64,000 nucleotides of DNA from contig CAZXTR010000002.1 of NCBI GenBank assembly GCA_964643615.1, forward strand, positions 937-64,936. Reading direction: 5' to 3'. Under the pieces are notes generated by a model. That model searched no databases, was not told where the DNA came from, and saw only the letters and a program-made list of their open reading frames with translations. The DNA is from an uncultured Lactobacillales bacterium (GTDB lineage: Bacteria; Pseudomonadota; Alphaproteobacteria; CAAHEQ01; UBA3637). Positions 3,258-41,997 of this stretch are shown here, in pieces; the stretch's first letter is position 1; the number at the start of each line of letters is the position of its first letter. Position numbers and translations under genes: made by a program.

Positions 3258-3562
3258 AAGTGCAACCTTTGTCGGTGACTTTGAATGTTCGCGTTCAGCC
3301 GAGTGCACAAAAAGAAGCTGTAAAAGGTCTTTGGAACCAGAATTTTATTAAAATTGCGTTGAATGCTCCTGCGGTGGATGGAAAAGCAAATGAGGCTTTA
3401 ATTTCTTGGCTATCTCAATTTTTCGAAATTAAAAAATCTTCAATTTTTATAATGACAGGAATAACTTCTCGGAGTAAAGTTGTTTCTATTCAATGCTCAA
3501 TTGCACAAAAGGAAAAAATTTTAGAATGGGTCAGATTATTGATGGAAAGGAGCTCGCCGTAA
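3215..3562 (+). CDS. DUF167 (YggU) family protein
   Basis: The pattern L.V.V.P.A.KEAV.G......LKI.L.APAVDGKAN.ALI..L.....I.KS.I.I..G..SR.K.V.I is typical of DUF167. The yggT-yggU pairing supports it. Confidence 0.65.
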   Translation: MLAKVFMGHIDQIVKVQPLSVTLNVRVQPSAQKEAVKGLWNQNFIKIALNAPAVDGKANEALISWLSQFFEIKKSSIFIMTGITSRSKVVSIQCSIAQKEKILEWVRLLMERSSP

Positions 3563-4365
3563 AATTTCGAGCTCAATTGTCCGAAGAAATCAAGCAAAAA
3601 GGAGTGCAGCCTTGTTTGGCTGTAGTGCTTGTGGGTGAAGATCCTGCTAGTTTGATTTATGTTAAAAATAAAGAAAAATACGCCAAAAAAGTTGGCATAT
3701 CTTCAATTGTTTATCGCTTTCCTGTTGATACGACAGAAAGGGAAGTGCTTTGTTTAATACAAAAGTTGAACAGGGATGATAACGTTCATGGTATTTTATT
3801 ACAGTTGCCGGTGCCATCGCATATTTGTGCACAACATTTGATTGAATCAATCAATCCAATAAAAGATGTAGATGGGTTGTCTCCGATTAATGTAGGACAC
3901 TTGGTTTCTGGTAAGCCAGCGCTAATCCCTTGTACGCCCTTAGGTTGTATGTACCTTATCCATCATGTGAAAAAAAAGTTGCAAGGATTGCATGCTGTGG
4001 TTGTTGGGCGTTCTTCGTTGGTTGGCCGTCCTTTGGCGACGTTGTTGTTGAACGAAGATTGTACTGTGACACAGGCGCATTCGAGAACGAAAAATTTGGA
4101 AGCTGTTTGTAATCAAGCCGATATTTTGATTTCAGCAACAGGTGTCCCTGGTTTAATTACAGCAAAAAATGTCAAAAAAGGTGCAATTGTTATTGATGTA
4201 GGAATTAATCGCCAAGATGATGGTTGTATTGTTGGGGATGTTGTTTTTGATGAAGTTTTAAAGCAAGCCTCTTTTGTTACGCCTGTGCCAGGTGGTGTTG
4301 GTCCTATGACGATTGCTATGCTTTTGTTTAATACAATGCAAGCGTTTGAAAAACAAAGAAAATAA
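3493..4365 (+). CDS. folD: Bifunctional methylenetetrahydrofolate dehydrogenase/cyclohydrolase FolD. The likely start is the Met at 3526 (MGQIIDGK).
   Basis: IIDGKELA...LAVVLVGEDPASLIYVKNKEK and a C-terminal NAD(P) Rossmann domain; full-length FolD architecture. Confidence 0.92.
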   Translation: MLNCTKGKNFRMGQIIDGKELAVKFRAQLSEEIKQKGVQPCLAVVLVGEDPASLIYVKNKEKYAKKVGISSIVYRFPVDTTEREVLCLIQKLNRDDNVHGILLQLPVPSHICAQHLIESINPIKDVDGLSPINVGHLVSGKPALIPCTPLGCMYLIHHVKKKLQGLHAVVVGRSSLVGRPLATLLLNEDCTVTQAHSRTKNLEAVCNQADILISATGVPGLITAKNVKKGAIVIDVGINRQDDGCIVGDVVFDEVLKQASFVTPVPGGVGPMTIAMLLFNTMQAFEKQRK

Positions 4366-4411
4366 ATTTAAATTTAAGCTTTTAAATCTTTTTTAGGGTG
4401 CGATTCTTTCC

Positions 4412-4440
4412 TTTACAAGCTTGTTTATTTTAGATATAAT
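4412..4440 (+). promoter_or_regulatory. Near-consensus sigma70 promoter (TTTACA-17 nt-TATAAT) driving the T4SS-associated operon
   Basis: TTTACA at 4412-4417, a 17-nt spacer, TATAAT at 4435-4440, then an AAGGAGGGG RBS and the ATG at 4472. Confidence 0.6.
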
Positions 4441-4471
4441 GTTAGAAATCGTTTAAAAAAGGAGGGGAGAT

Positions 4472-5197
4472 ATGCCTTTGACACAAAAACGGATAACAAA
4501 AGGACTTTTGGTTGTTTTAGGGATGATTTTGGGGGTATCTTCTGTTCGGGCAGCTCATCCGATTACCGATATTACGCAAGATGCTTTGGCTGTAGTTGAA
4601 AATTCAAATGTTTTAAAACAATCAATTCAATTATTTGAATCGGGCGCGGTTGCTCGGTCTATTTATACAGCACAAGGAGATTTTAGAACCTTGGGCAATA
4701 ATTGGAGTTCTATTTTGACCTTTGATTGGGCGATGGATTCGGGATTAAGGCAAGCCTTTGCACCTGTTTTAGATGATGAGGATTTGACGGTTGCCCTTTC
4801 TGGGGATTTAGGTGTTGTTGGTGCTGCAAGAGGCTTCAATGTTACAAATTTAAGACGGAAAGTTGAAAAAACGTTAATGTTGCCGATAAATATTTCAGAT
4901 ATAACAGCACGGGAATTGCAAGCGATAAAACTTGAACAGCGGCGAAAGACAAGAGCTGCAACATTAGACAATTATTCGTTGGGTTTATCTGTTCAAGTGG
5001 ATGCAACGAATTTTGAAAAGGAAAAAATACCAGCGATTCGTCAAATGGCTCAAAAAACAGAAAATTTGACGGAAGCTGTTGTAGTTCAAAGTGAGGGTTT
5101 GAATTTGATTGCATCCCAAATCAATATAAATAATTTGTTAAAAGCGGCAGCGTTGGAATTACAATCCATTGAAGTGATGAAAATGGTTGATGGATAA
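4472..5197 (+). CDS. Secreted (signal-peptide) alpha-helical protein of unknown function. It may be VirB5/TrbJ-like.
   Basis: N-terminal signal peptide (LLVVLGMILGVSSVRA), then hydrophilic heptad-rich sequence. It is the first gene after the promoter and is translationally coupled to the next ORF. Confidence 0.5.
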   Translation: MPLTQKRITKGLLVVLGMILGVSSVRAAHPITDITQDALAVVENSNVLKQSIQLFESGAVARSIYTAQGDFRTLGNNWSSILTFDWAMDSGLRQAFAPVLDDEDLTVALSGDLGVVGAARGFNVTNLRRKVEKTLMLPINISDITARELQAIKLEQRRKTRAATLDNYSLGLSVQVDATNFEKEKIPAIRQMAQKTENLTEAVVVQSEGLNLIASQININNLLKAAALELQSIEVMKMVDG

Positions 5198-5924
5198 GGA
5201 GCGTGTGATGAAGGGAAGAGCCCTTGTTTTATCTTTGCTTGTGTTTGCATTTATTTCTTCAAGTGCTTTTGCGACGGTGGATGTTGTTATGGTGACTTTT
5301 AGAACGTCTCATGTTTTTCAACAAGTGAAAGAATATTTACAGGTTGCGGAACAAATTAAAAAGGATATTGAAAGATTGAAAAGCTTTGGCGATATTAATC
5401 AATTGGCAAAGTTTTTGCAGGTTCATTTGTCTGTGGATGGGAAATCTTTAGGTGTTTCTATTGATGCCGATGTCGCACGCCCGGCTGTTTTACAAGATTT
5501 GCAACCCTTTGTTCAGAGGGGTGGACGTGATCGTCTTAGGCTTCGTCAGCAAGTGGACACTCTATTGACGGTGGATTTAACAAATGCTGATGCGGTGCAA
5601 TATCAAAAAGTTAAAGATACAGCAAACGCTATATCTCATGTGACAACTTCGGATGCCTATGGAAAGGCTTTGGAGATAAAGGCGAAATCGAATAATGAAG
5701 GGATTGAAGTTTTGGTAGATCAAGCTGAAAAAGCAGAAAATTTTCAAGAGAAAGCAACGGCGTTTACGCTTTTTTACGAACCTATTGCGTTGAAGCTTAA
5801 CACTATTAATCAATTAGATGCTATGCTCAATACTTTGGAAAGTGCTCGTAAAATGCCAACGTTGGTTGGTGAGGCTATAAATGATGGGAATAATTCTTCT
5901 GATGCAAAAACAGGAGGGAAGTGA
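5187..5924 (+). CDS. Secreted alpha-helical protein of unknown function. It may be VirB5/TrbJ-like.
   Basis: Signal peptide (ALVLSLLVFAFISSSAFA); Q/K/E-rich helical N-region reminiscent of TrbJ/VirB5. It overlaps its neighbours by 11 and 4 nt. Confidence 0.5.
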   Translation: MMDKERVMKGRALVLSLLVFAFISSSAFATVDVVMVTFRTSHVFQQVKEYLQVAEQIKKDIERLKSFGDINQLAKFLQVHLSVDGKSLGVSIDADVARPAVLQDLQPFVQRGGRDRLRLRQQVDTLLTVDLTNADAVQYQKVKDTANAISHVTTSDAYGKALEIKAKSNNEGIEVLVDQAEKAENFQEKATAFTLFYEPIALKLNTINQLDAMLNTLESARKMPTLVGEAINDGNNSSDAKTGGK

Positions 5925-6865
5925 TGAGGGGGGCGGGGGTCGTCGGTTTTGGAATGGTTGTAACTGCCTTGATTTTGTCGCAACCTGTTTGTGCACAACG
6001 GGCTCAAGCAATTACGGCTGTTATTAAAACGGCGGAAGGATTAAAGTCGGGATCTTTTATTGGAGGGATGATGGGTGGGGGTGTCCCCGTTAAGGATAGT
6101 CTACGTGAAATCCAATCTAATTTAATTAATTTGAACGAGTTCGAAAAATTAAAGGGTATTGATTTTAATATTCAAGAAATTTATGTAAACATTGAGAGCA
6201 CTGCTAAGCAAGGTGTGAATGCGACACAACAAGCTTTGAGGAGTCTTCCTACGTCATCCGATTATACTCAGTTGTTGTCAGGGGATACAGGGAATCGAGG
6301 TATAGATGATGCATTTGTGGAAGATATTCTTGCTAAAAATGGCCCTGGTTCTGATGCAACGACCATACGGGAAGAAGCGGCAGATATGGATGACGTGCGT
6401 TATGATAAGTCTTTTCTAGACAGAGAATCGGCACTAGATTACGTTAAAAAGACCTTTTTCGTTGATATGGATGCTATTAATGCCAAAGGTGCGCAAGCAC
6501 TTCAAACTGTTCAATTTGAACAAACAAAAAAACGCCGTCAATTATTGTTGCGAGATGTAACAGTAGATGCATTGACTTATTCGCAACTGTTTAAGGGAAA
6601 CGGAAAAAAAGATTTTGAAGAAAGACTTGCGAGGATTAAAGAAAAACAAAAAGCGGTGAAAACGGAAACCGAAGGGATTGCAACAACAACAATGGCGTTA
6701 AAAAGTGTTCTTCAAGAAGTTATGATCCAAATTGTATTAGAGCAAAAGCAATTAAAATTAGAAGCAGCGAAGGTTTTAAAAATGCAAGAAATTCCTTTAG
6801 CAAAAAAGTCCGATGTTAAAAGTGAAAGTTCAGCTGATGAAATTGAGGGGGAGCCATTAAGATGA
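5921..6865 (+). CDS. Secreted protein of unknown function with a Gly-rich N-region
   Basis: Signal peptide; a GGMMGGGVPV segment; coiled-coil-like C-terminus. It has an ATGA overlap with the upstream ORF and is coupled downstream. Confidence 0.5.
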   Translation: MMRGAGVVGFGMVVTALILSQPVCAQRAQAITAVIKTAEGLKSGSFIGGMMGGGVPVKDSLREIQSNLINLNEFEKLKGIDFNIQEIYVNIESTAKQGVNATQQALRSLPTSSDYTQLLSGDTGNRGIDDAFVEDILAKNGPGSDATTIREEAADMDDVRYDKSFLDRESALDYVKKTFFVDMDAINAKGAQALQTVQFEQTKKRRQLLLRDVTVDALTYSQLFKGNGKKDFEERLARIKEKQKAVKTETEGIATTTMALKSVLQEVMIQIVLEQKQLKLEAAKVLKMQEIPLAKKSDVKSESSADEIEGEPLR

Positions 6866-7587
6866 AGAAAAAAATATTTATTTTATTTTTTATTTTATCT
6901 TGCTTTTTCCCTTTTAATCAAGTGAAGGCAATTTCTTTTCCAAAAATGGATGCCCTTATTACTCCTTTGGCTGTCGGAGACGGTTCTTCTATTTTGATGC
7001 TGGGTGGAATGACGGGGCAGCAAATTTTGACGGCGATTGTTTCAATCACCGATTTTATTAATCGCCAACAGTTGGAATTAGCGATGTCTTTGAATGGATT
7101 TCCTTTTGACAAGCGTGTGGCTGGTCTACGATATCTTATTCCGCAAATAGAACCATGGCGTGGCTCGGATGTGGGAATCTCGGTATTGTTTTCCAAAGGC
7201 GTAACAGTTGAAGATTCTCATGCCGTTTCTCGTGCTGTTGAGCAGGAAGTTATGGTCGCTAGAGAAACAAGTGCCGCAGGTGTTCAATTGGAACAAAAAA
7301 AGCGAAATTTATTTTCCCAAGAAAATGTTATTATTGCGATGGCAGATGCTCTTTACTATGAATCGTTGATTCAAGAATTACAAAAAACGTTGGATGAACT
7401 TTCACAAAGTGCAGATGTTAAAGAAGACAAGAATGGTGCAGTAACTGCAAATTATAAATATATGGAAGCTTGGTATCGTTTGTTGACTTTGTTAGAACAA
7501 ATTAAGGCTGAACGAGTTATGTTAAAGGCCTCTCAGGGAATTGTAGATGGGCAACCCATTTTGGATAGTGTCCTAACTTCGGGTTAA
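6862..7587 (+). CDS. Secreted protein of unknown function
   Basis: Signal peptide (MKKKIFILFFILSCFFPFNQVKA). It has an ATGA overlap with the upstream ORF. No recognisable domain. Confidence 0.5.
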   Translation: MKKKIFILFFILSCFFPFNQVKAISFPKMDALITPLAVGDGSSILMLGGMTGQQILTAIVSITDFINRQQLELAMSLNGFPFDKRVAGLRYLIPQIEPWRGSDVGISVLFSKGVTVEDSHAVSRAVEQEVMVARETSAAGVQLEQKKRNLFSQENVIIAMADALYYESLIQELQKTLDELSQSADVKEDKNGAVTANYKYMEAWYRLLTLLEQIKAERVMLKASQGIVDGQPILDSVLTSG

Positions 7588-7603
7588 ATGGAGGGAAGTT
7601 TTA

Positions 7604-9445
7604 ATGAAATATACTTTTAAAATAGGAATGTTTTTTGCTTTGTTTTTTTTGTTAGGTATGACTGTCGTTGGTCAAACAGAGGAAATAAAAAAAACTAAAG
7701 ATGTGATCTCCGACGATATGTGGAGCCCTTCGGTGGTGCGTGTAAATGCACAAGAAACACCTGTTATTCTTGGCAATATTGAAAATTTTGGATATCAAAA
7801 AGCTTTAATACAAGCGATGAGTTTGCATAACTATGCGAATTCGTTGCAAAATCAAATTCTTCAGGCTGATGATTATAAATATGCGGTTGTGAATGTCGCT
7901 TTAGCTGAACGTCGACTGACAGATTTGACTACGTGCAATATTAAGTTACTTCAGGATCATTTTATTGATGCGAAAAGTGTTTGGGATAAAATGAAATCCG
8001 AAGCCGATAGAATGTATCAAGAGGTTTCTATAAGTGAAACAATAGAACTTAATGAAATGAGTGAAAAAGATTTAGAAATTTTGGCTGGGATTACAAACGA
8101 TGGTGGTTCTTCAAGTGCTTTGTTGAATGAGATAAAAATTAATCTTTGTGAAGAGGCAATAGAATGGACTATCGGCCATTCTATTTTGACAGATTTATAT
8201 TACGATCAAGATGCTCAATTAAATGACGGGTCATTTAAATGGGGAGAAAGAAAAACCCCAACAACACCTTCATTCTCTTTGTGGCAAGACCAAAAGTTTT
8301 TATATGATAAGCAAATTTGGGACCCTAAATATATTGCGATTAATACCTTTTTTAAGGAACCTTTAGAGAGAAGACCCAAAATTTTGGGAGATAACCAAAA
8401 TCAAAAAAGGTTTGATTATTATTTTTATAATGACGTTGTCAAAGCGCACGAGGCTTATTTGAAACAATTAAAGATTGAAAATTTTCAGAAACCTGCGCGA
8501 GTTGTTTGGGAAGCTCTGCCCGCCGAATTAAAAGAGCCACCAAAGGTTGCTCCGCGTCCGTTGCCTCCTCGTTCAGAAATTGTTCTTTTCGACATGGATG
8601 ACGAAGATGCTAATGGAAATCTAATTCAATCGTTTAATGGAGTTTGTTTGGGGTATCCTCAACCGTGGCAAACTTTTATTGATAATCAATTCCGAATCTA
8701 TAATGCACGTGGAGAAATGGCATTTTTGTTTGATGTTAATCGCGGGGCGAAAACAATAACGCCTCGATGGAATGAAAGGGAAGTAATTGATTCAATGTTG
8801 CCAAAGCCCAATCGAATTAGCCGTTATTTGACCACGCAATATGAATTGAAAAAGAGAACGGCAGCGTTAGAAGAACAACGTGTTCGTGTGGCCGAGTTGA
8901 AATTACGGTATGAAGATATTGCTAGTAAGAATGGAGTCAAATTACCTGATAATTTGCATTATGGGAAAAAAGAAGATTTACAAAAAGTAAAAGATGCTTT
9001 TTTAAAGGAGAGAGACGAGCTACTTGCTTTGATAAAAAAAGAATATCCGTCTTTTGCATCAAAATTAGATTCTTCGGATATGCCCTTGCCTAGTGAAGAA
9101 GAACAAAAACGCTTAGACTCGTTGGCTCAACCCCAAGTTAAGGGAACAGACGAGACAAATACTTCTTGGGAAGAGGGTTTACTACCTAATTATGTTGCTT
9201 TAGCAAAAGCTATGAATTATGACTCCAGAGCAGAGGTGACGCTTTACTTTTCTAATGTTGAAAATATTGCTGAAGAAATGGCAACTGAACGTGCGAATAC
9301 GGCGTTGGCCGTTTTATCTCGTGAACAACTTGCTGAAGCTAGAAATGAACAAATAAAAAATGAAACACGAGATATTTATGAAGTTCCCTATTGTGTTAAC
9401 GGTGGAATCATAGGAGAGTTTGTTTTCGATGAAAGCCAAATTTGA
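7604..9445 (+). CDS. Large secreted protein of unknown function (613 aa) with a Pro-rich segment
   Basis: Signal peptide; a PPKVAPRPLPPRSE proline-rich linker; acidic stretch. It sits directly upstream of, and overlaps, the first virB8-like gene. Confidence 0.5.
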   Translation: MKYTFKIGMFFALFFLLGMTVVGQTEEIKKTKDVISDDMWSPSVVRVNAQETPVILGNIENFGYQKALIQAMSLHNYANSLQNQILQADDYKYAVVNVALAERRLTDLTTCNIKLLQDHFIDAKSVWDKMKSEADRMYQEVSISETIELNEMSEKDLEILAGITNDGGSSSALLNEIKINLCEEAIEWTIGHSILTDLYYDQDAQLNDGSFKWGERKTPTTPSFSLWQDQKFLYDKQIWDPKYIAINTFFKEPLERRPKILGDNQNQKRFDYYFYNDVVKAHEAYLKQLKIENFQKPARVVWEALPAELKEPPKVAPRPLPPRSEIVLFDMDDEDANGNLIQSFNGVCLGYPQPWQTFIDNQFRIYNARGEMAFLFDVNRGAKTITPRWNEREVIDSMLPKPNRISRYLTTQYELKKRTAALEEQRVRVAELKLRYEDIASKNGVKLPDNLHYGKKEDLQKVKDAFLKERDELLALIKKEYPSFASKLDSSDMPLPSEEEQKRLDSLAQPQVKGTDETNTSWEEGLLPNYVALAKAMNYDSRAEVTLYFSNVENIAEEMATERANTALAVLSREQLAEARNEQIKNETRDIYEVPYCVNGGIIGEFVFDESQI

Positions 9446-10112
9446 ACAATCTTTTACTGTCGATGAAAAAAAGAACACTTTAAAAAGTGTCGAAAGTCGC
9501 GTGAGTATGGGGCGCATTTCATCTTTGTTTTTTACGGGACTTGGATTTTTGTTAGTTAGTATTACATTTTTCCTTGTTTTAACTTTGTTTCAAGTGGGGC
9601 AACGATTGACTGTTTTGGCGCAACCTTTGCAAAAAGTATTGCAATCTTCTCAGTCGTTGGTTGTTAACGAAGATTTTAATAAAAACCTATCTTCTTTAAA
9701 ACTAGTTCATGAAACGTTGGTACGCAATTATGTTATTAAAAGGAATATGGTTATTCCAGATAAAATAGAGATGATGAAGCGATGGAGTGGTGGTGGTGAT
9801 ATCTTTTTGATGTCTTCTCCTAGCGTTTTTTATACGTTTGTCGGCAAAGATTTAAAAGGCAAAGTTTCTAGAGCTTTGAACAATGGAAGTGTCTTTGTCG
9901 ATATTCAAAAAGTTGAACAGATTATTCCTCGAACGCTGTCAGGTGTTGAGAATTGGTCAGTTGTTTTTAATTTGATTTATGCCAACGGTTTTGTTGCACG
10001 GCATACTGCTTCTTTAGTTTTGGTAAATACGCCTTCTCGTGTTCTTTTTCGGCCTCATTTTAATAACCCTGTTGGGGCTTTGGTAATAAAGTATGAAGAT
10101 TATCCCTCATAA
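9420..10112 (+). CDS. virB8: VirB8-like T4SS protein, divergent paralog 1
   Basis: Short cytoplasmic N-terminus, one TM helix, then a periplasmic NTF2-like domain ending NNPVGALVIKYEDY (compare the VirB8 NPLGF.V..Y motif). Confidence 0.6.
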   Translation: MFSMKAKFEQSFTVDEKKNTLKSVESRVSMGRISSLFFTGLGFLLVSITFFLVLTLFQVGQRLTVLAQPLQKVLQSSQSLVVNEDFNKNLSSLKLVHETLVRNYVIKRNMVIPDKIEMMKRWSGGGDIFLMSSPSVFYTFVGKDLKGKVSRALNNGSVFVDIQKVEQIIPRTLSGVENWSVVFNLIYANGFVARHTASLVLVNTPSRVLFRPHFNNPVGALVIKYEDYPS

Positions 10113-10201
10113 ATTTTAAAATTCTTGTGTTAAGTAAAAATTAATATTGTTTTTTTAAGATAAACTTGTTATGGTGAAAAGAACGCTAAAAAGAAAGGGG
10201 A

Positions 10202-10384
10202 TTGTCGATGAAAAAAATTCTTGTTTTAGGAACGGTTATTTTTACAACCTTACTTGTCTCTTGTGGTTCTTTGTATGAAAAAGAACCTGTGGGGATTGGT
10301 ACGGATTACTCTGAATTGAAAAAATCCCCATGTGCTTGTTTGGAAGTGAAATTATTACCCGGCTTGCCTGAATGGTTTTCATAA
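10202..10384 (+). CDS. virB7: VirB7-like small lipoprotein. The probable start is the ATG at 10208.
   Basis: Lipobox LLVSC with a Cys right after the signal. It is 58-60 aa and sits between the two virB8 paralogs, as in Rickettsiales rvh loci. Confidence 0.5.
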   Translation: MSMKKILVLGTVIFTTLLVSCGSLYEKEPVGIGTDYSELKKSPCACLEVKLLPGLPEWFS

Positions 10385-10399
10385 AAAAGAGGGATTGAT

Positions 10400-11134
10400 A
10401 TGTTCGCTCGTCGTGCAGATGTGTCGAGGACAAATGCGAGTGTTGAAGAAGATGCATCGTTTGTGTTTTCTGATCAGTTGGACGAGGAAAATTTAAGAGA
10501 GCGTAGGTATTTATGGACAGCTCGAGCTTTTGCTGTTGTGTCCGCCGTTAGTATAGTTGCAAATATTGTGTTGGTTTTTGCGTTGTCGTCGTTGGTTCCG
10601 TTGACACGAATACAGCCTTTTTTCTTAACATTTGAAGATAAAAATGACCAAATTGTACGTGTTTCTCCGACAAATGTTAGTGCAGAACACTTAACCGAAA
10701 TTACTGAATCTTTTGTTCGTCAATATGTTGTTTTGCGTAATGCAGTTGTTTTTGATATTGATGAAATGAGATCTCGTTGGGGTGATTTTGGTCCCATTCG
10801 TTGGATGTCTGAAACGGAGCTTTATAAAAAATTTCTGACTGAAGAATTTGCAAAAACATTTGCTCGCATAGAAAAAGAAGGGTTTACAAGACGCGTGGAT
10901 ATTTCTTCTGTTTATCGCCAAATAGATAATTCAGATGTGGAACGGTGGGTTGTAGAAATTGAGGAATTGGAAATGGCGTCAGGGGCAAGTGAGCCTCAAA
11001 AAAAGTATTATACAGTGACAATGGATGTTGCTTATGAACCAAGGGATGCAAAGTGGGCTTTTCGTCGTAAAAATCCGATGGGCTTTATAGTAAAAAATTA
11101 TGGCAAAGTAGAAAAGGGGATCCAAGAGCTTTGA
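10400..11134 (+). CDS. virB8: T4SS protein VirB8
   Basis: N-terminal cytoplasmic segment, one TM helix, and a periplasmic domain with the VRQYVVLRN...NPMGFIVKNY C-terminal signature of the VirB8 family. Confidence 0.85.
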   Translation: MFARRADVSRTNASVEEDASFVFSDQLDEENLRERRYLWTARAFAVVSAVSIVANIVLVFALSSLVPLTRIQPFFLTFEDKNDQIVRVSPTNVSAEHLTEITESFVRQYVVLRNAVVFDIDEMRSRWGDFGPIRWMSETELYKKFLTEEFAKTFARIEKEGFTRRVDISSVYRQIDNSDVERWVVEIEELEMASGASEPQKKYYTVTMDVAYEPRDAKWAFRRKNPMGFIVKNYGKVEKGIQEL

Positions 11135-11398
11135 CGTTCTTTAATGGTGTTGTTTTTTTGTTGAATGTGGGATGGAAGAAAGTTGAAGGTATTTACCGGT
11201 ACGTAGGATATAAAGATAGAAAATGTATTTGCATTATTATGTATTTTAGTGGGATTTGTTGCTAGAGTTATTATTGGATTGGGTGATTTGTAAGAAAATA
11301 TTAATTTTTAAAAATTATATTACTTTTTAGTAGACTTTTATAGAGGATTTGATTTATTTTGTAACTTAGGTGTTAACCATGATAGAAAGAGTACGCAG

Positions 11399-13033
11399 AT
11401 GTTAAAACATGAAATAAGAAAAAAAATTTTGATGATGACCGTAGCAACTCTAGTTGTTTTGAGCCCGTTTGTTGTCGTTGCACAACAGGTTCAGCCTGGG
11501 GATGTGGAGGCTGCTCAAATTAGTGATGCTATAGCACAAACAGCGGGGAGCTTTGATGCGATTAATCTCAGCTATTTAACATCTTTAGGAATGCAACAAA
11601 AAGCGTGGAATGACCCAATGCAACATTTGGGGGAAGGGCAATTAAAGCCTGGATATTCTCGTTATGTGTGGACGCCGGATGTGGTTTTGCCGGTTCGTTT
11701 GCGTGAAGGAATGATGACTCTTATCAATTTGCCTGCGTGGGAATTGATTGAAAAAGTGCATATCGGATCGCCAGAGTCTTTTGGCGGAGAAATTGCGGCG
11801 CCTAATTCATTGTTGTTGTATGCTGATCCGACTTATATAGGAGTTGACAGTAATTTGATTGTTTTTGGACGTTCTGGGAATCGGTATGTTTTTTATTTAA
11901 GGAGCGAGACTTACAATACGGATAGAATTACAAGTGCGGTTGTTGATGTATTGGTTGGTCCTAAATATACCCCTGAAAGTGTGGGCGGAAGCTTGAATTC
12001 AAATGATGGTGTTTCTGTGACAGCTTCAACTACAGGGAAGAAAGGAGGCGCTCCTGGTTGGAGCGGCGTTGGCAATAATAGTTTAACTCCAGGTGGAATG
12101 CAATCGCCAAATGTTGGTTTGAATACAGCGGGAAATGCTCCCCAAAATTGGTTAGGATCTGTTAACTCTAATCCAGAAAATTTACGCTTCGATATCGAAA
12201 TGTTTATCCCTAATCCTCAAGATATTGATATTGCTCCAGAGCGCGTATGGCGTGATGAGATTTTTACTTATATTGATTTTGGTGACAAAGCTTTGACCAT
12301 GACGCAACGTCCTGTGGTTAATTTGATCGTTCAAGGTGTGGAAGCTCCCGTTGGATCACGTGCGCGTGGCCCGAATAGTCGATTATTGGTTGTCGAAGGA
12401 ATTGGCGATATGGTTTTGCGTAACGGACAAAAGATTATTTGTTTGAAATTGAGACGTGATCCTGCCTTTGGGTTGGATAGAGCCGATTATTCTGCTTCTA
12501 ATGCAAGGACTTGGAATGCTGATCAACCATCTAATGTTTCTGAGCAAGACATAGGTGGCGTTTCCCAACAAATGAAAAGTCCGGGGATACCTTTGCCTGT
12601 GACAAATGGTGGCAATCAATATTCTGATCCGTATGCAACGGCACTAGATGCATATCAGAATAATTTATCTCCTTTGCCCAATGGGGTGCTTTCTTCTCAA
12701 TCAGCTACTTCTGGCATCGCGAATGTGATGAATGGTGTGACGGTTGGTGGCGGTTCGTTTGGCGTGCCGATGGCGGATAATATTGCTATCGAGTTAGGTC
12801 AAGCAAATACAATTGGTGAGTTGGAAAACAAGTGGGATTCTGTTCTGGGGAGAAATAAAGATTTATTACATGGTTACAGTCCTTATTTTTCTATTGATGC
12901 TATGGCCGAAGGTGGTGCTCCAGAATTGTTTCGTTTGCGTATAGGGCCTTTGGACACAGTGAAAACAGGGGATTCTTTATGTGAAAAGCTTAGTCGTCGT
13001 GGTTTCGTGTGTTCCGTGATTAGAACGCAATAG
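11399..13033 (+). CDS. virB9: T4SS protein VirB9 (CagX/TrbG family). It is extended by a low-complexity G/S/N-rich insert and a C-terminal SPOR-like domain.
   Basis: Signal peptide; N-domain (YVWTPDVVLPVRLREGMMTLINL...); C-terminal beta-domain (FTYIDFGDK...VVNLIVQGVE...ICLKLRRD). An extra C-terminal tail of about 170 aa ends LFRLRIGPLDTVKTGDSLCEKLSRRGFVCSVI (SPOR-like). Confidence 0.8.
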   Translation: MLKHEIRKKILMMTVATLVVLSPFVVVAQQVQPGDVEAAQISDAIAQTAGSFDAINLSYLTSLGMQQKAWNDPMQHLGEGQLKPGYSRYVWTPDVVLPVRLREGMMTLINLPAWELIEKVHIGSPESFGGEIAAPNSLLLYADPTYIGVDSNLIVFGRSGNRYVFYLRSETYNTDRITSAVVDVLVGPKYTPESVGGSLNSNDGVSVTASTTGKKGGAPGWSGVGNNSLTPGGMQSPNVGLNTAGNAPQNWLGSVNSNPENLRFDIEMFIPNPQDIDIAPERVWRDEIFTYIDFGDKALTMTQRPVVNLIVQGVEAPVGSRARGPNSRLLVVEGIGDMVLRNGQKIICLKLRRDPAFGLDRADYSASNARTWNADQPSNVSEQDIGGVSQQMKSPGIPLPVTNGGNQYSDPYATALDAYQNNLSPLPNGVLSSQSATSGIANVMNGVTVGGGSFGVPMADNIAIELGQANTIGELENKWDSVLGRNKDLLHGYSPYFSIDAMAEGGAPELFRLRIGPLDTVKTGDSLCEKLSRRGFVCSVIRTQ

Positions 13034-13057
13034 TTGTTATACTCAAATTTAAAATAA

Positions 13058-16000
13058 ATGTTGGGAAGAATGGAAGACAAAACATTAAACAACTCGTCTT
13101 TAAGTGAGCAATATGTAAAAAAGTCGAATCGGCTTTTGTTTGCTGGTGGAATTATTGGGACTGTTATTTTTTTGGTCCTGGTGTTGTTTTCCGCAGTTTC
13201 TTCTCCTCCTGAAGAGACCCCACTTCCTCCAATAGAATCTGGAGAAATTGGTCTTGGGATGGTTAATTCTGAGGAATTAAGAGGTGATGCATTGTTGGTT
13301 GCAAGCCCCGATTCGTTGGATTTAGATCGGATTATTGTAGGGGGATCTTCTGAATCTATTGTGACTTTGACGGCAAAAGGGAATGCAGTTCGTATTCATT
13401 CTATATCGTTGGCTGAAATCCAACAAGATGGTTTTATTATTGAAAGTGATTGTCCTCTAAAAGATCAGGAAATGCGCGTAGATAGTTCGTGCAATATCAA
13501 AGTATTGTGGAGCCCTGTTTCTGTACGACGTTTGCAAAATAATTTAATTATTCAATGGTCGGCTTCTGACGAAGTAACCGCATCCAAATTCCAAAAATTG
13601 ATGATTACGTTGGTTGGGCAATCAACAGATTCTAAAGATTGTATCATTTGCGAAGATAGTGCGGCTTCTGCTTTGGCTGCCGAAAAGGGGACGTTAGATC
13701 CGGAAACGGGTATTTATTTGTCCGACACAGGGGAAGTGTTGGGCATTATTGAGCCAGAATTAGTTCCTATTAGTTTGCGTGGTGTTTCTATGGGAACAGT
13801 GAAAATTGCTACTCGGGAAGTTGTTGATTCTTCGGGGCAAGTGATTGGTCGGTTGTTAGCGGATAATACAATTGTTACGCCTGAATTAAAAGTTTTGGGT
13901 GCGGCGTTGCCTGTGACTTCTGTTTTGGACGAAAAAGGCATTGTTATTGGTGAATTGTTGAATGATGGAACCGTTATTAATGGTGTAAAAGATGTTATCG
14001 GTGTTCCTATGCCTGATGGGACGATTTTAAGTAATGGCAAAATTATCGGTTCTGTTATGCCGTGGTCCGTCGTTTTGAATTTATCGTCGAATGCTGTGGG
14101 TGTTACAAGAAAAGATGGGACGGTTATTAATCCTCAAAAACAAACAATTGGTCGGGTTTTACCTGGTGGGCTTGTTGTGGATGTTGAAGGAACTATTGTC
14201 GGAGGAGTTGTCCCAAAAGGATTGGCGATTGGTGCGGGACGTAAATTGTTGGGTACTGTTTTACAAAGTGGTAAGGTTTTTAATGCAGGACAACAAGTTG
14301 CGACTGTGACAATGGATGGAATCGTTTTGGATATGTCTAATGTTCCCATTGGTAATGTTGTTCGTGAAGGTTTGGTAATTGATCCTAAGGGGACTGTTGT
14401 TGCTTTTATTAATTCTGCGGGAAGAGCAATTGATAGAGAGGGAAAATCATTGGGGGCTTTAAATCCAGATGGTAGTGTGGGTGCTGGAAAAAATATGATA
14501 GGGGCTTTATTGCCTCAGGGTCGTGTGATTGGCTATGATTTAAAAATTCAAGGATTGGGTTTGTCCGATGGTTCTGTTGTTCGATTGAATGGCGATTTGA
14601 TAGGAAAACTTCTTTCAACGGGTTATTCTGTTGACTTGGATAATAAAGTATTGGGCGCGGTTGTTCCTAAAGGAACCGCGATTGCTGAAGGTTGTGTGTT
14701 GTTAGGCATTATTAATTTGGATGGTCAAGTGTTGGGAGAAACATCTGAATTGGTGGGAACTGTTAACCCAGATAAAAAAATAATTGGTTCAAAGGGTGAT
14801 ATCATAGGAAGCGTTACACCTATCGGAGCTGTGGTTAACCCTGCAGGTGTGTTTGTCGGATTTGTTCGTATGGATGGTAAAGTTGTTGATAAATCAGGGC
14901 AAGTGATAGGATGTGTTAATCCCGCTGGAACTGTTGTAGATGAACATGGCGTCATGATAGGTCAAGTTGTGAAGGTTGGTACTGTTTTGGATGCAAATGG
15001 TAATCCGACGTCGATGACTGTAGTAGGAACGGATGTATTTGATGAAACTGTACGACGTATTGGGGCTTTAATTAACAATCAAGTTGTTAACGATGCTGGA
15101 AAGATTTTTGGTTTTGTGGCTCCTGACGGCGTTGTAATGTCTCCGAAAGGAACATTTTTAGGTCGTTTTTCAAATTCTGTTGGCTATGCTCTTAGCCCTG
15201 AAGGCGTACGCTTTGGGCGTGTTTTACCCGATTTGACAGTTGTTGGTATAGAGAAAAATGATATTCTCGGCGCTTTGATTGCCGATGGCAGCCAATTATT
15301 GAATATTAAAAATGAACGTATAGGATTTGTCCGTGCAGATGGTGTGCCTGTGACGTCGGATCAAGCGCCTCTTGGTGTTATTCGTGCGGATGGTAGTGTT
15401 GTTAGTGCCGAAGGATTGATTCTTGGTGGTTTGATGCCAAAAGGATTGGTTGTGGATTGGAATGGTTCGGTGATTGGATCCGTTGGGGATATGGCGAAAG
15501 TAGTGTCTGCTTCTGGGGATGAAGTTGGCGTTGTTAATTTAAATGGAACAGTTGTTCGTCAAGGAGCTATTGTTGGAATGGTTTTCCCTGAACCTTCTAT
15601 TCCTTTGGGGGCCGACGGCTCTGTGTTGGGCTTTTTGACAATTAATGGTTCGGTAAATAAAGATGGCAAGCCTATTGGTCACATAACTGCGGGCGGAAAT
15701 ATTTTTGATAATCGAGGAAAAATTATAGGTTCTTTGGTTCGTTTGGGCGCTGTTGTTGGTTCTGGCTTGGAAGTAAATGGCTATTTAGAATTTGATGGTT
15801 CGTTGAAAAGTCAAGCTAATACGGTGATTGGCCATATGATGCCTAATGGTTATGTTGTCGATGATAACGGAGCTGAAGTTGGTCATTTGATTGCACGTCA
15901 AACAGTTGTTGATTTAACGGGGGGCTTTATCGGTATTGCGTCCGTTGATGGCCGTGTTTTTGGGAAAGATGGTGAATTTATTGGAGCTTTCCCTTATGGT

Positions 16001-19000
16001 GATTCATTATGGAATTCTAAAGATATTTTAATAGGTCGTATTTTAAAGGCTGGCGTTGCTGTTGACCCATCTGGACAATTGTTAGGGTGGGCACGTTATG
16101 ATGGGACAGTTGTTAATATCTCAGGTCAAGTGCTTGGGATTGTTCAATCAGATGGTCGTGTTATCGGGGCTAAAAAAACAGTTATTGGTGCGTATATACC
16201 TTTCGGAACGTTGGCGTTTGATGAAAAAGGAATTACAATAGGGGCTGTGGACTTTAATGGTGTTGTGAAAGATGGTAAAAATTCTTCATTAGGAACTGTT
16301 ATCGATTCACTTGTTATCAACAAGCAATCAGGAGTTGTCGGTTCAATATTGCCTGAAGGTTTCGCAACAAATGAACAGGGTAAGGTTTTTGGGACTGTTG
16401 CTCCAAATGCGACGGTTGTTCCGGGCATTGAAATAGAGAGTTTAAATGGCTATTTAAATCCGAATTTGCGTATGATTAATCAAGACAAAAAGGTTATTGG
16501 AGGCAGTGTTCCTTTTGGGGTTGCTCTGGGATTGGATTTGTCTATTGTGGGAAATGTGACGCCAGATGCGCGTGTTATTTTTAATCGTTCTCCAGTTGCA
16601 GTTGCTTTGCCAGATATGACTATGTATGATTCTGTTGGTAAAATGTGGGGAGGTATTATTCCATTAAACGTTGTTATAGGACGTGATGGACATGTGGTTG
16701 GGCGAACATCGGTTTCGAATGCCGTTTTGGATTTTGACGCAAAGAAATTAGGATCGTTGATGCCATTTGGTACCGTGTTTGGTGCAAATAACAAATTGCT
16801 TGGAATTGGAATGATGAATGGTGTAGCGGTTAATGACGATGCTAAGCCTTTGGGGTTTGTTGGTGTTGATGGTGCGGTTGTTGATAGTAGTGGTGTGGTT
16901 GTTGGTCGTGTGATGCAGGATGGCACGATTATTGAAACACTGAACCGAGATGTTTACGGTGTTATGCCGGATGTTGGAGATGTCGTCGCTTCTGGGGTTG
17001 CTATAAACTTGAAGTCAGAATTGTTGGGGCGTTCAATGCCGTCGGGACATGTACTTGATGCGAAAGATGATATTGTTGCATGGGTTTTGGATGATGCTAC
17101 TTTGTTTGGAACGAATGGAGATTTGGCAGGCGCTTTAGTCCCTTATAGAACAGCGATTGATTATCAAGCCAATGTTTTGGGAAATACGACTGGTAACGGT
17201 GAACTTGTAAGTGTTCAAGGGGCTGTTATTGGGACTTTGGCCACGAATGGTGCCGTTAAAGGAAGTCACGTGTTAAAAACTTTAGGTGCTATCGTTCCAA
17301 AAGAGCTGGTTTCTCACGAATGTAAAATCGTTGGGCAACCACGTTTAGATGGTCGTATCATTGATGCAAAAGGAGTTGTTGTTGGTGTGTTGAATTTAGA
17401 TGGCTCTGCCCAAAATTTAAAAGGAGAACCTTTGGGTGGTGTTGTCGTTAAAGGGTCTGTGATTGCTCAAGATGGAACATTGTTAGGTCGCACTTTACCA
17501 GATGCAGATGTGGTCGATTTATCAGGGGCGTCTATCGGTTGTTCTTTGTCCGATGGATCTGTGATTGACAAAAATGGTAACGTTATTGGTAAAGTTCTAA
17601 AACGGGGACTTGTTCTCGATAAAGACGGAAATGTTGTTGGTCGTGTAAAGCGCAATGGAAGCGTTGTTGATGCTTCTGGAAATGTTGTTGGTCGTGTTTT
17701 GGGCAATGGTGATGTTGTGAATACTTCTGGCAATGTCATCGGCCGTGTTGTTGATGTGAAAAAAGATCAATTACTTTATGGTGATGATGGTAAAATTTTG
17801 GGTTCTATGGACAAGGTGGGGCGTGTTTTCGATAATAAAGGAAGGCATTTGTTTGCGGTTGCTCCAGATGGCAAATTATATGATCCTGCGGGTAATTTAA
17901 TAGGTTCTGTTGATGATGAAGGAAATATCCGTAATTTGGCCGGAGAGATTGTTGGCAAAGTTGGGAAAAATTCTGTTTCTGAATCGCCTAAGTATTTATA
18001 CGGTGATAATGGACGTATTATTGGACGAGTTAAAGGGAATAAAATTTATGATTTGAACGGTAAAGAGATGGGGGCTGTTTTGCCCGATGGTACGGTAATG
18101 TTGCATGGCAAAAAGTTGGGAAAATTAGATGCAAATGGTAACATTATCAAAGATGCAGAGAAGGGAAAAGGTGTCGGCAGTATTCGAGATGGTAAGTTGT
18201 ATGATGAAAATGGCAATGTAGTAAGCTATATTCGAGGGAACAAGATTTACGATTCTGATGGTAATTTGATTGGCGAAATCTTACCCGATGGCACGGTGAT
18301 GTTGCATGGTGAAAAATTGGGTAAATTGGATGCAAATGGTAATATTATTGCTGACGGTACGGGGGGATTTATCTCTGGGAAAATAGAAGATATTTTAGGT
18401 AAATCTGAAATTGCAACGGAAGGTGCGCGTCAAATTGATATGGGAGGGCGCTCCCTCTTGATTTTGCCAGATAAAACGATTATTGATCCCTTGACAAACT
18501 CTATTGTTGGATATTTGGGAGCTGATAGTATACCGTATTCGACAAGTGGGAATCGGTTGTCGGATGATATGGATGGTTCTAAACCATTTATGCAAGAAGC
18601 GGTTAAGTTTACCCCTGAACAAGCACAACAAATGCAACAGATGTTGGCAAATCGCCGTCAACAGATGAAATCAAAAATATCTTCGAACAACGAATCTGGG
18701 GAGAGCCAATTATCAAAGTTGATTCCTGATGCACGTATTTTGGCGCGGTCCAATCCAAAAATTGCTAAGGATTTTGGGTCGAAGACAGTTTCTTCATGGC
18801 CTGTTCCAATGGATAGGATGATTTTAAAAGACAAGTCTATTCCTGCGGTTTTGTCGCGGTCAATTGACTCGCGTTATATGAGCGTTCCTGCTTCGGCGGT
18901 TGTTGAACGTCATGTTTATGCCGAAGATGGTCGGAATATTTTGATTCCTGCGGGCAGTAAATTAATTGGTAAGGTGAGTGGTAGTCCTGGCAAAAATCGT

Positions 19001-41741: not shown

Positions 41742-41755
41742 AAAAAGGAGAAAAA

Positions 41756-41953: not shown

Positions 41954-41997
41954 TTTTAAAAGGACTGCTTTAGCGGTCCTTTTTTAAGAGAGATATA

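What the first reader, a model, noticed from the sequence alone, without database searches (positions are those of the whole stretch)
4472..9445. Operon of five translationally coupled secreted proteins of unknown function heading the T4SS cluster
All five ORFs (241, 245, 314, 241 and 613 aa) have clear Sec signal peptides and hydrophilic, helix-rich mature regions. They overlap each other by 4-11 nt (ATGA junctions) and run directly into virB8. Three are VirB5/TrbJ-sized, and their N-mature regions (for example HPITDIT…Q…Q, VDVVMV…QQVKEYLQVAEQIKK) loosely recall TrbJ/VirB5. Rickettsiales rvh systems are thought to lack VirB5 and VirB1. They could be novel pilus-tip or minor-pilin analogs, periplasmic components, or co-transcribed effectors.
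Basis: inference. Interest (0 to 1): 0.65.

Follow-up and report, generated by a model that had tools for sequence, protein, structure and literature searches.

The report
Tandem VirB5-like genes heading a T4SS operon
Four of the five secreted proteins are fast-evolving, very distant copies of VirB5, the tip/stalk protein of type IV secretion machines. The fifth belongs to an undescribed protein family that always sits just before virB8 in a lineage of uncultured gut Alphaproteobacteria.

Summary
The five ORFs are real genes. All five are present in the same order, between housekeeping genes (lptD-surA-rsmA, with folD in this window) and virB8-virB7-virB8-virB9-giant virB10, in the closer relatives (L004/L006/L010, L020-L024, L008). 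More distant relatives keep the last two genes plus a variable set of 4-6 related secreted proteins. All relatives are uncultured gut/rumen Alphaproteobacteria.

O1-O4 (241, 238, 313 and 241 aa) match no curated model. After signal-peptide trimming they form one paralogue superfamily. Their joint profile matches the proteins in the VirB5 slot of Microvirga, Erythrobacter and Sphingosinicella plasmids at 27-42 bits (shuffles reach 11.4 at most) and 94.9% by hhalign. The Erythrobacter protein passes Pfam's VirB5 threshold, and that plasmid group links to canonical VirB5, including TrwJ, at 95.9%. O1-O4 are therefore best read as an array of divergent VirB5-like proteins.

O5 (613 aa) is not VirB5-like. 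It has no Pfam, NCBIfam or PDB match and no significant Foldseek match. It defines a family of 194 clusters that lies immediately upstream of virB8 in every locus examined.

The Rickettsiales/rvh framing is not supported. The "4-11 nt overlaps" hold for only some junctions. This is a new variant of a known kind.

The parts
4412..4440 (+). Sigma-70-like promoter candidate (TTTACA-17-TATAAT) in the folD-O1 spacer, about 30 nt before the O1 start
   Evidence: It is the best + strand consensus match in 3400-13100, at 11 of 12 positions. This is a consensus match only; the total number of sites in the region is no higher than in shuffles.
4472..5197 (+). O1, 241 aa, a Sec-type secreted VirB5-like paralogue. 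The mature N-terminus is AHPITD.
   Evidence: ORF. Orthologues at 38-42% identity. It joins the O3/O4 cluster at phmmer 1e-5. The plasmid VirB5 profile scores 9.1 bits, with 0 of 400 shuffles reaching that. P-I-T-D motif at residue 30. The AF2 model is unusable (pLDDT 39, all helical).
5208..5924 (+). O2, 238 aa (245 aa if the TTG at 5187 is used), a secreted VirB5-like paralogue
   Evidence: Start and Shine-Dalgarno site. TIGR02780 TrbJ hit at E=0.0043, far below the cut-off. Canonical VirB5 profile 6.4 bits, reached by 3 of 400 shuffles. The family profile scores 12.6 bits (z=5.4) on the Sphingosinicella VirB5-like protein. This is the weakest individual link of the four.
5924..6865 (+). O3, 313 aa (314 aa from the GTG at 5921), a secreted VirB5-like paralogue with a Gly-rich N-terminal stretch followed by GVPVKD
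   Evidence: hhalign O1 versus O3 gives 75%. O3 and O4 are in the same cluster at phmmer 1e-8. Plasmid VirB5 profile 11.9 bits, 0 of 400 shuffles.
6862..7587 (+). O4, 241 aa, a secreted VirB5-like paralogue. The mature N-terminus is ISFPKMD. An O4-like gene lies immediately upstream of O5 in most relatives with upstream sequence.
   Evidence: An ORF matching the O4 profile (HMM 9-376 bits) ends just before O5 in most loci that carry upstream sequence, though not in L037. The Erythrobacter VirB5 hits W O4 at E=4.4e-4 by phmmer, signal peptides included. Plasmid VirB5 profile 11.5 bits, 0 of 400 shuffles. Cys14 is not conserved, so O4 is not a lipoprotein.
7604..9445 (+). O5, 613 aa, a secreted helical protein that founds an undescribed family always found directly upstream of virB8
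   Evidence: No Pfam or NCBIfam hit. No PDB sequence hit. AF2 pLDDT 68 and pTM 0.65, with no Foldseek PDB hit better than E=0.48. There are 194 representative clusters at E<=1e-3. It is adjacent to virB8a in every locus that has downstream sequence. Conserved residues include C111/C597, W227-x-DQK, PxxLPPxxE, PxPW, GE and NR.
9429..10112 (+). virB8a, a divergent VirB8 paralogue (227 aa)
   Evidence: blastp 1.7e-10 to virB8b. Orthologues hit PF04335.
10208..10384 (+). virB7-like 58-aa lipoprotein (lipobox LVSC)
   Evidence: Translation. Conserved at 76-81% identity to the window copy. Present between the two virB8 genes in most related loci that extend that far.
10400..11134 (+). virB8b
   Evidence: PF04335 at E=4.4e-17.
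11399..13033 (+). virB9 (544 aa)
   Evidence: PF03524 CagX at 7e-13 and TIGR02781.
13058..19801 (+). Giant virB10 (2247 aa) made of beta-flower repeats plus a TrbI domain
   Evidence: PF21785 at 2e-85 and PF03743 at 4e-34.
19814..20803 (+). virB11 ATPase
   Evidence: TIGR02788 at 1.2e-40.

Best explanation
Genes 4472-9445 are the promoter-proximal part of one long T4SS operon: O1-O5, virB8a, virB7, virB8b, virB9, virB10, virB11.

O1-O4 are four tandem, rapidly diverging paralogues of the VirB5/TrbJ superfamily. They are exported by Sec and lose a signal peptide. By inference from what VirB5 does in characterised systems, they assemble on the periplasmic stalk or the distal tip of the machine. 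There VirB5 nucleates pilus growth and makes target-cell contact. Several divergent copies would give either a mixed stalk or alternative tips and adhesins.

O5 is a separate, lineage-specific soluble exported subunit. Its fixed position directly before virB8 argues that it is a structural or assembly component of this T4SS lineage. In a locus where the array follows virB4, the array plus O5 fills the usual virB5-virB6 interval.

Shown: the genes, their conservation and synteny, their paralogy, and profile-level homology of O1-O4 to VirB5-slot proteins. Inferred: export, location in the machine, and function.
For: Operon structure. The genes are tightly packed, each preceded by a Shine-Dalgarno site, and the best promoter-like site in the region lies just upstream of O1.

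Conservation. Synteny is conserved in 27 species-level loci plus further contigs.

One superfamily. Of 100 upstream proteins with the hydrophobic leader trimmed, 90 form one phmmer component at 1e-3 and 75 at 1e-5. The 1e-5 component includes window O1, O3 and O4.

Link to VirB5-slot proteins.
- The signal-peptide-trimmed joint O1-O4 HMM scores Sphingosinicella 42.0, Microvirga Mv273 41.8 and Erythrobacter 27.4 bits. The 600 shuffles per protein reach at most 11.4 bits and reversed sequences at most 7.2.
- The alignment covers the C-terminal 100-190 residues.
- Among 393 background ORFs, the top non-self hits of the trimmed profile are two of these proteins and their larger paralogue Mv428. 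With signal peptides kept, TrwJ ranks next.
- hhalign of the joint profile against the plasmid group gives 94.9% (E=4.7e-8), with controls at 0.1%.

Link from the plasmid group to VirB5.
- The Microvirga and Erythrobacter proteins lie immediately after VirB4.
- The Erythrobacter protein hits PF07996 at 30.3 bits, above the 24.7 cut-off.
- The plasmid group against nine canonical VirB5 proteins, including TrwJ, gives 95.9% by hhalign.

Further hints.
- The best PDB sequence hit of the untrimmed joint profile is TrwJ (7o3v) at E=1.4e-3.
- One of the 100 upstream proteins hits PF07996 at 2.5e-6.
- A P-x-x-D motif at residues 16-45 occurs in 16 of 100 upstream proteins against 5 of 393 background ORFs.
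- In L056 the array begins with a protein starting ...AVIPTFD right after a VirB4 C-terminus.

Evolutionary rate. O1-O5 are 37-49% identical between genomes whose VirB9 is 73% and VirB7 81% identical. This is as expected for exposed components.
Against: - No window protein reaches any curated VirB5/TrbJ threshold.
- The link to canonical VirB5 is transitive and uses different regions: C-terminal for O1-O4 to the plasmid group, N-terminal for the plasmid group to canonical VirB5.
- Direct comparison of the joint profile with canonical VirB5 gives only 3.9% by hhalign.
- TrwJ drops to noise once signal peptides are removed.
- Single-family profiles are individually weak, and the O1 family profile alone gives nothing.
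- The only structure model of an O1-O4 protein is unusable (pLDDT 39), so the fold is untested.
- No virB2, virB3, virB4 or virB6 lies in the 64-kb window, so a pilus cannot be asserted.
- I could not identify which relative's protein gave the PF07996 hit.
- For O5 there is no functional evidence beyond position and conservation.
Confidence: 0.62

Rival explanations
1. O1-O5 are lineage-specific periplasmic or outer-membrane accessory subunits of an expanded core complex, analogous to CagM, Cag3 and CagT around CagX/CagY in Helicobacter. On this view they do not play a VirB5 role, and the similarity to VirB5-slot proteins reflects very old common ancestry or convergent helical architecture.
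For: The system has a giant repeat-rich VirB10 of 2247 aa and an enlarged VirB9 of 544 aa, as Cag does. This parallel with Cag rests on my own knowledge. O4 and O5 are conserved strictly with virB8/7/8/9. No curated VirB5 model is met. O5 has no known fold.
Against: Profile homology of O1-O4 to proteins sitting in the VirB5 slot is well above the shuffle and reverse controls. The N-terminal P-x-x-D motif is shared. In L056 the array directly follows VirB4.
Confidence: 0.2
2. Some or all of the five are Sec-exported surface adhesins or secreted effectors that are merely co-transcribed with the T4SS and are not parts of the machine.
For: They evolve faster than the core T4SS genes. Copy number and sizes vary among species, from 4 to 6 genes of about 170-820 aa. 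Some relatives carry long repeat-containing extensions, for example L011:281-1477.
Against: T4SS effectors are normally recruited from the cytoplasm and lack Sec signal peptides (established knowledge). O4 and O5 keep a fixed position across very divergent species. O1-O4 are homologous to VirB5-slot proteins.
Confidence: 0.1
3. This rival concerns O5 only. O5 would be the missing cell-wall-remodelling or channel component: a VirB1-type peptidoglycan hydrolase analogue, or a soluble substitute for VirB6.
For: No VirB1 or VirB6 gene is present in the cluster. O5 occupies the slot just before virB7/virB8, where virB6 normally sits. Its invariant acidic, aromatic and His residues and a conserved Cys pair could form an active site.
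Against: O5 has no transmembrane segments apart from the leader. It has no match to lytic transglycosylase or TrbL/VirB6 models, to PDB sequences or to PDB folds.
Confidence: 0.12

Closest known systems
VirB5/TrbJ family (Pfam PF07996; for example TrwJ of R388, PDB 7o3v; TraC of pKM101)
   Same: The size is similar (about 220-310 aa). Both have a Sec signal peptide. Secondary structure is predicted to be all helical, from a low-confidence model. O1, O4 and O3 carry a P-x-x-D motif near the mature N-terminus. The conserved C-terminal helical half aligns with VirB5-slot proteins. The genes are encoded inside a virB-type operon.
   Different: No curated model threshold is met. The relation to canonical VirB5 is only transitive. 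There are four copies instead of one. In this window the genes are not flanked by virB4 and virB6. The fold is not verified.
VirB5-slot proteins of a plasmid T4SS lineage: Microvirga pMVF16-3 (WP_203447093), an Erythrobacter aureus plasmid (WP_115418094) and Sphingosinicella p1 (WP_129392756)
   Same: These are the closest detectable relatives of O1-O4 (27-42 bits; hhalign 94.9%). The Microvirga plasmid carries by far the best plasmid VirB11 match (40% identity), a 58-aa VirB7 and a long VirB9 (550 aa). The Microvirga and Erythrobacter plasmids also carry a second, larger VirB5-like paralogue, Mv428 and Ery453.
   Different: They are plasmid-borne, and the Microvirga and Erythrobacter systems are complete with virB2/3/4 and virD4. 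They have a single virB8, no O5 homologue and a normal-sized VirB10.
Bartonella Trw T4SS with amplified trwJ (VirB5) and trwL genes
   Same: Both show tandem multiplication and divergence of the VirB5 component within a T4SS locus. In Bartonella this is interpreted as a set of variant surface adhesins (PMC10936683).
   Different: In Trw, trwJ is co-amplified with trwI/trwH (VirB6/VirB7) and the pilin gene is also amplified. Here only VirB5-like genes are multiplied and the paralogues are far more divergent, at 10-25% identity.
Rickettsiales vir homolog (rvh) T4SS
   Same: The cluster is chromosomal. VirB8 is duplicated with virB7 between the copies, followed by virB9-virB10-virB11. The virB2/3/4/6 genes are not in the same cluster.
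   Different: The published rvh hallmarks include no VirB5 analogue and duplication of VirB9 and VirB4 (PMC11077975). Here VirB5-like genes are present and only one VirB9 is seen. No virD4 follows virB11. The relatives are gut Alphaproteobacteria MAGs. Neither window VirB8 found any solved VirB8 chain in the PDB by phmmer.

Membership tests
VirB5/TrbJ (PF07996, TIGR02780) | Score above the curated threshold of the family model | tested here: not met
   No PF07996 hit for O1-O4. TIGR02780 scores 16.5 bits for O2 against a cut-off of 100.55. One unidentified protein among the 100 relatives hits PF07996 at 2.5e-6.
VirB5/TrbJ (PF07996, TIGR02780) | Detectable homology to bona fide family members | tested here: met
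   The link is transitive. The joint O1-O4 profile matches the plasmid VirB5-slot group at 27-42 bits (shuffles at most 11.4) and hhalign 94.9%. That group matches canonical VirB5 at hhalign 95.9%, and its Erythrobacter member passes the PF07996 threshold. The direct comparison with canonical VirB5 is not significant, at 3.9%.
VirB5/TrbJ (PF07996, TIGR02780) | Sec signal peptide and a small soluble mature protein of about 200-300 aa | tested here: met
   Each has one N-terminal hydrophobic segment and an AxA-type site conserved in orthologues. This is a heuristic, not a trained predictor.
VirB5/TrbJ (PF07996, TIGR02780) | Helical-bundle-plus-appendage fold, as in TraC and TrwJ | tested here: inconclusive
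   The AF2 model of O1 has pLDDT 39. It is predicted all helical, with long N-terminal and two long C-terminal helices, but is too poor for a fold search.
VirB5/TrbJ (PF07996, TIGR02780) | (I/V)-P-x-x-D motif at the mature N-terminus | tested here: met
   O1 has PITD at residue 30, O4 has PKMD at 27 and O3 has PVKD at 56. O2 lacks the motif. It occurs in 7 of 12 VirB5 references, 16 of 100 upstream proteins and 5 of 393 background ORFs.
VirB5/TrbJ (PF07996, TIGR02780) | Gene located between virB4 and virB6 | tested here: not met
   In the window the array follows folD, and no virB4 or virB6 was found in 64 kb. In the related locus L056 the array does follow a VirB4 C-terminus.
VirB5/TrbJ (PF07996, TIGR02780) | Location at the stalk or pilus tip, and requirement for pilus biogenesis | not testable with these tools
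   This needs cryo-EM or cryo-ET, fractionation or genetics.
Rickettsiales rvh T4SS | Duplicated VirB8 | tested here: met
   Two VirB8 paralogues at 9429-10112 and 10400-11134.
Rickettsiales rvh T4SS | Duplicated VirB9 | tested here: not met
   The region has only one CagX/VirB9 ORF. O5 sits directly upstream of the first virB8 and shows no similarity to VirB9.
Rickettsiales rvh T4SS | No VirB5 analogue | tested here: not met
   Four VirB5-like genes are present. The hallmark list is taken from PMC11077975.
Rickettsiales rvh T4SS | Duplicated VirB4 and multicopy VirB6 | not testable with these tools
   None is seen among the window ORFs scanned. The rest of the genome is not available.
Rickettsiales rvh T4SS | The host is a member of Rickettsiales | tested here: inconclusive
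   All titled relatives are 'uncultured Alphaproteobacteria bacterium' MAGs from human, rumen and rabbit gut, plus a few evidently mis-binned contigs. An anaerobic RNR is present. No phylogeny was made.
Any described family, for O5 | Match to Pfam, NCBIfam, a PDB sequence or a PDB fold | tested here: not met

The most novel reading that the evidence does not exclude
This cluster would represent an undescribed T4SS subtype, found in gut and rumen Alphaproteobacteria and in some unnamed metagenomic lineages. In it the virB5-virB6 interval has been replaced by an array of 4-6 hyper-divergent VirB5-like proteins plus a soluble O5-family protein of 500-1850 aa. O5 would take over a stalk or channel role normally played by membrane-embedded VirB6. 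Together with a 2250-aa beta-flower VirB10, this would build an unusually large, variable extracellular contact apparatus.
Probability: 0.25. Interest if true: 0.7.

Novelty: new variant of a known kind. Interest (0 to 1): 0.5.

Why it matters
VirB5 sits at the stalk and tip of type IV secretion machines and is thought to mediate target contact. An operon with four to six highly diverged copies offers a natural experiment on how tip and adhesin diversity evolves, comparable to the Bartonella Trw system. The carriers are abundant but uncultured gut and rumen Alphaproteobacteria.

The work also assigns a probable role to about 100 'hypothetical' proteins. It defines a new conserved T4SS-linked family (O5, 194 clusters) that no database currently recognises. 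Finally, it warns against reading a duplicated virB8 as proof of a Rickettsiales rvh system.

Tried and rejected
Searches that found nothing:
- Single-sequence searches of O2 found only itself in 5.8 billion proteins. They found nothing in the PDB or in plasmids.
- Pfam and NCBIfam scans of all five proteins gave noise only. The same was true for 23 orthologues and for 100 upstream proteins, apart from one PF07996 hit.
- Three further Pfam calls on 30 candidates failed to identify which protein gave that PF07996 hit.
- A genome-contig scan with O5 as a single query found nothing. The alignment query worked.

Structure:
- AF2 of O1 with a 7-sequence alignment failed (pLDDT 39), so no fold search was possible for O1-O4.
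- The O5 model searched against the PDB with Foldseek gave only spurious coiled-coil hits such as SMC and MukB.

Results I discounted:
- The TrwJ PDB hit is largely driven by the signal peptide and N-terminus. It disappears after trimming, so I do not count it as independent proof.
- O4 as a VirB7-like lipoprotein: rejected, because Cys14 is not conserved.
- O5 as a VirB9 paralogue (a second VirB9 copy, as rvh systems have), as VirB6 or as VirB5: rejected.
- The 1125-aa ORF after virB11 as VirD4: rejected, because it has no P-loop or T4CP domains, is Cys-rich and has a pilin-like leader.
- Pfam on seven large O5 homologues gave nothing.

Full report
**1. What is in the sequence**

The + strand of 4472-9445 carries five consecutive ORFs of 241, 245, 314, 241 and 613 aa, at exactly the coordinates given.

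Upstream lie housekeeping genes: the lptD 3' end, surA, rsmA/ksgA, two small genes and folD.

Downstream, on the same strand, lie:
- a divergent VirB8 paralogue (9429-10112);
- a 58-aa lipoprotein with an LVSC lipobox (10208-10384, VirB7-like);
- VirB8 (PF04335);
- VirB9 (PF03524, 544 aa);
- a 2247-aa VirB10 made of about 1500 aa of beta-flower repeats plus a TrbI domain;
- VirB11;
- a 1125-aa Cys-rich ORF that is not VirD4.

The rest of the window is housekeeping: dnaK/J, secDF, a hybrid histidine kinase and an anaerobic ribonucleotide reductase. It contains no virB2, virB3, virB4 or virB6.

**2. Checking the details of the observation**

Each of the five proteins has one N-terminal hydrophobic segment and nothing else that looks membrane-spanning. 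Each has an AxA-type cleavage site that is kept in the orthologues.

The junctions are tight, but not all are overlaps.
- O1/O2 most likely has a 10-nt spacer, with AAGGAG 6 nt before an ATG at 5208. Independent gene calls agree on 238 aa.
- O2/O3 is TGATG.
- O3/O4 is ATGA.
- O4/O5 has a 16-nt spacer containing GGAGGG.
- O5 overlaps virB8a by 17 nt.

The best sigma-70-like site of the region (TTTACA-17-TATAAT, 4412-4440) lies in the folD-O1 spacer. This is a consensus match only.

**3. The genes are conserved and always travel with the virB genes**

O5 has homologues at 38% down to 25% identity. Contigs encoding them show the same order: lptD-surA-rsmA-(yggT-DUF167-folD)-O1-O2-O3-O4-O5-virB8a-virB7-virB8b-virB9-giant virB10.

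A scan of one genome per species with the O5 alignment returned 27 loci. Nearly all are titled uncultured Alphaproteobacteria from human, ruminant or rabbit gut.

In every locus that extends far enough, O5 is immediately followed by virB8a, and in nearly all of them by virB7-virB8b-virB9. In most it is immediately preceded by an O4-like gene. Further upstream lie three to five more leader-bearing proteins, placed directly after rsmA or folD.

Between this genome and its nearest relatives, O1-O5 are 37-49% identical. VirB9 is 73%, VirB7 81%, VirB8b 62% and FolD 64%. The five genes therefore evolve faster than the core of the machine.

**4. O1-O4 form one superfamily**

The first pairwise comparisons were only suggestive.

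With 100 upstream proteins from all loci, and the hydrophobic leader trimmed, phmmer single linkage gives:
- 90 proteins in one component at 1e-3;
- 75 at 1e-5, including window O1, O3 and O4;
- O3 and O4 still in the same 44-member cluster at 1e-8;
- O2 joining at 1e-3.

**5. Relation to VirB5**

No window protein reaches a curated threshold. The only hint was TIGR02780 (TrbJ) at E=0.004 for O2.

The closest plasmid VirB11, at 40% identity, is on Microvirga pMVF16-3. Its T4SS has an unannotated 273-aa gene right after VirB4, a 58-aa VirB7 and a 550-aa VirB9.

Mv273 has homologues on an Erythrobacter aureus plasmid and, more distantly, on a Sphingosinicella plasmid. The Erythrobacter protein passes Pfam's VirB5 model, PF07996, at 30.3 bits against a cut-off of 24.7.

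A leader-trimmed HMM of 23 O1-O4 sequences scores these three proteins at 41.8, 27.4 and 42.0 bits. For each protein, 600 shuffles reach at most 11.4 bits and the reversed sequences at most 7.2.

The alignment spans the C-terminal helical half and extends towards the N-terminus in Mv273. Among 393 background ORFs, these proteins and their larger paralogue Mv428 are the top non-self hits.

Profile-profile results:
- O1-O4 against the plasmid group: 94.9% (E=4.7e-8).
- The plasmid group against nine canonical VirB5 proteins, including TrwJ of R388: 95.9%.
- Controls (VirB9, VirB8a): 0.1%.

Individually, the plasmid-group profile scores O1 at 9.1, O3 at 11.9 and O4 at 11.5 bits, with 0 of 400 shuffles reaching these values. 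O2 scores 4.9 bits, reached by 8 of 400 shuffles. O5, VirB9, SurA and VirB8a are indistinguishable from shuffles.

A P-x-x-D motif just after the leader, the counterpart of the VirB5 'IPVxD' start, is present in O1 and O4 and occurs internally in O3. It is enriched in the upstream proteins, 16 of 100 against 5 of 393.

One of the 100 proteins hits PF07996 directly at 2.5e-6. I could not find which one.

**6. Limits of that evidence**

- The link to canonical VirB5 is transitive. The direct profile comparison gives only 3.9%.
- The best PDB sequence hit, TrwJ at E=1.4e-3, vanishes when leaders are removed.
- The AF2 model of O1 is unusable (pLDDT 39), although it is all helical with long terminal helices. 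The fold therefore remains untested.
- I rate 'O1-O4 are VirB5-superfamily proteins' at about 0.75. I rate the full mechanistic statement at about 0.6.

**7. O5**

O5 is not related to VirB5, VirB6, VirB8 or VirB9. It matches nothing in Pfam, NCBIfam or PDB sequences.

Its AF2 model is moderately confident (pLDDT 68, pTM 0.65) and mostly helical. It has no meaningful Foldseek hit in the PDB. Other structure libraries were unavailable.

A full HMMER search finds 194 representative clusters. These include soluble proteins of 1050-1855 aa that carry O5 segments and also have no Pfam domain.

Three of these large homologues were looked up. All three lie directly upstream of virB8-virB7-virB8-virB9. 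In one locus the whole array is preceded by a VirB4 C-terminus and starts with a protein beginning ...AVIPTFD. There the array plus O5 fills the place where virB5 and virB6 normally sit.

Conserved O5 residues include a Cys pair (C111/C597) and the motifs W-x-DQK, PxxLPPxxE, PxPW, GE and NR.

**8. Interpretation**

The most economical reading is one operon that encodes, first, an array of divergent VirB5-like exported proteins and a lineage-specific exported partner (O5), and then the envelope-spanning core.

By analogy with characterised systems, the VirB5-like proteins would sit on the stalk or tip and mediate contact. Their multiplicity and fast divergence recall the amplified trwJ genes of the Bartonella Trw system (PMC10936683).

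The main rival readings are Cag-like accessory core subunits, co-transcribed adhesins or effectors, or a cell-wall or channel role for O5. They cannot be excluded without structures or experiments.

**9.

The published rvh hallmarks are duplication of VirB8, VirB9 and VirB4, multicopy VirB6, and no VirB5 analogue (PMC11077975). Only the VirB8 duplication is seen here, and VirB5-like genes are present.

The relatives are gut Alphaproteobacteria of unresolved order. The finding therefore does not bear directly on the question of the 'missing VirB5' in Rickettsiales.

**10. Verdict**

The VirB5-like interpretation is supported for four of the five genes. This is a new variant of a known kind of system, plus one genuinely uncharacterised T4SS-linked family. 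Interest is moderate (0.5).

Noticed in passing
window 13058-19801: VirB10 is 2247 aa. It has an N-terminal TM segment, about 1500 aa of beta-flower repeats (PF21785 at 2e-85; PF21784) and a C-terminal TrbI domain. The giant size (2250-2333 aa) is conserved in relatives.
   Followed up: partly
window 20880-24257: A 1125-aa ORF sits directly after virB11, where virD4 would be expected. It has no Pfam hit. Its N-terminus (…GHGMVEMLAVLALVGVLSVGG…) resembles a prepilin/pseudopilin leader, and the rest is Cys-rich and repetitive.
   Followed up: partly
window 10208-10384: A 58-aa lipoprotein gene (lipobox LVSC) lies between the two virB8 genes. It is VirB7-like and is the best-conserved gene of the cluster, at 76-81% identity to the closest relatives. 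It falls below the 60-aa ORF listing when started at its ATG.
   Followed up: yes
window 11399-13033: VirB9 is unusually long (544 aa), with a large insert and a weak SPOR-like C-terminus (PF05036, E=0.19). The Microvirga plasmid VirB9 is equally long (550 aa).
   Followed up: no
L001:129-3338, L006:126-3359 (gene whose 3' end is window 18-941): The lptD gene upstream encodes about 1070 aa and carries precomputed hits to both LptF_LptG (PF03739) and LptD (PF04453). This may be an inner-membrane permease fused to outer-membrane LptD.
   Followed up: no
window 39675-42705: The genes nrdD and nrdG, for anaerobic ribonucleotide reductase and its activase, indicate an anaerobic lifestyle. This fits the gut and rumen origin of all relatives.
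   Followed up: no
L013:14044-15330 and L018:9802-11163: In the Microvirga and Erythrobacter plasmids, the 428- and 453-aa 'hypothetical' genes that lie between VirB5 and VirB7 are themselves VirB5-like paralogues (HMM 36.8 and 18 bits; hhalign 93.6%). Neither has several TM segments, so neither is a canonical VirB6.
   Followed up: partly
L056:4562-8470, L057:5167-10734, L058:1516-6174: O5-family proteins of 1302-1855 aa come from unnamed metagenomic contigs. They are soluble and have no Pfam domain. All lie directly upstream of virB8-virB7-virB8. The N-terminal region of the L056 protein also weakly matches the O4 profile and carries a TPTFD motif.
   Followed up: partly
L033, L037, L038: Three loci with the same Alphaproteobacteria-type T4SS synteny are deposited under 'uncultured Lactobacillales' or 'Holdemanella biformis'. 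They are probably mis-binned contigs.
   Followed up: no
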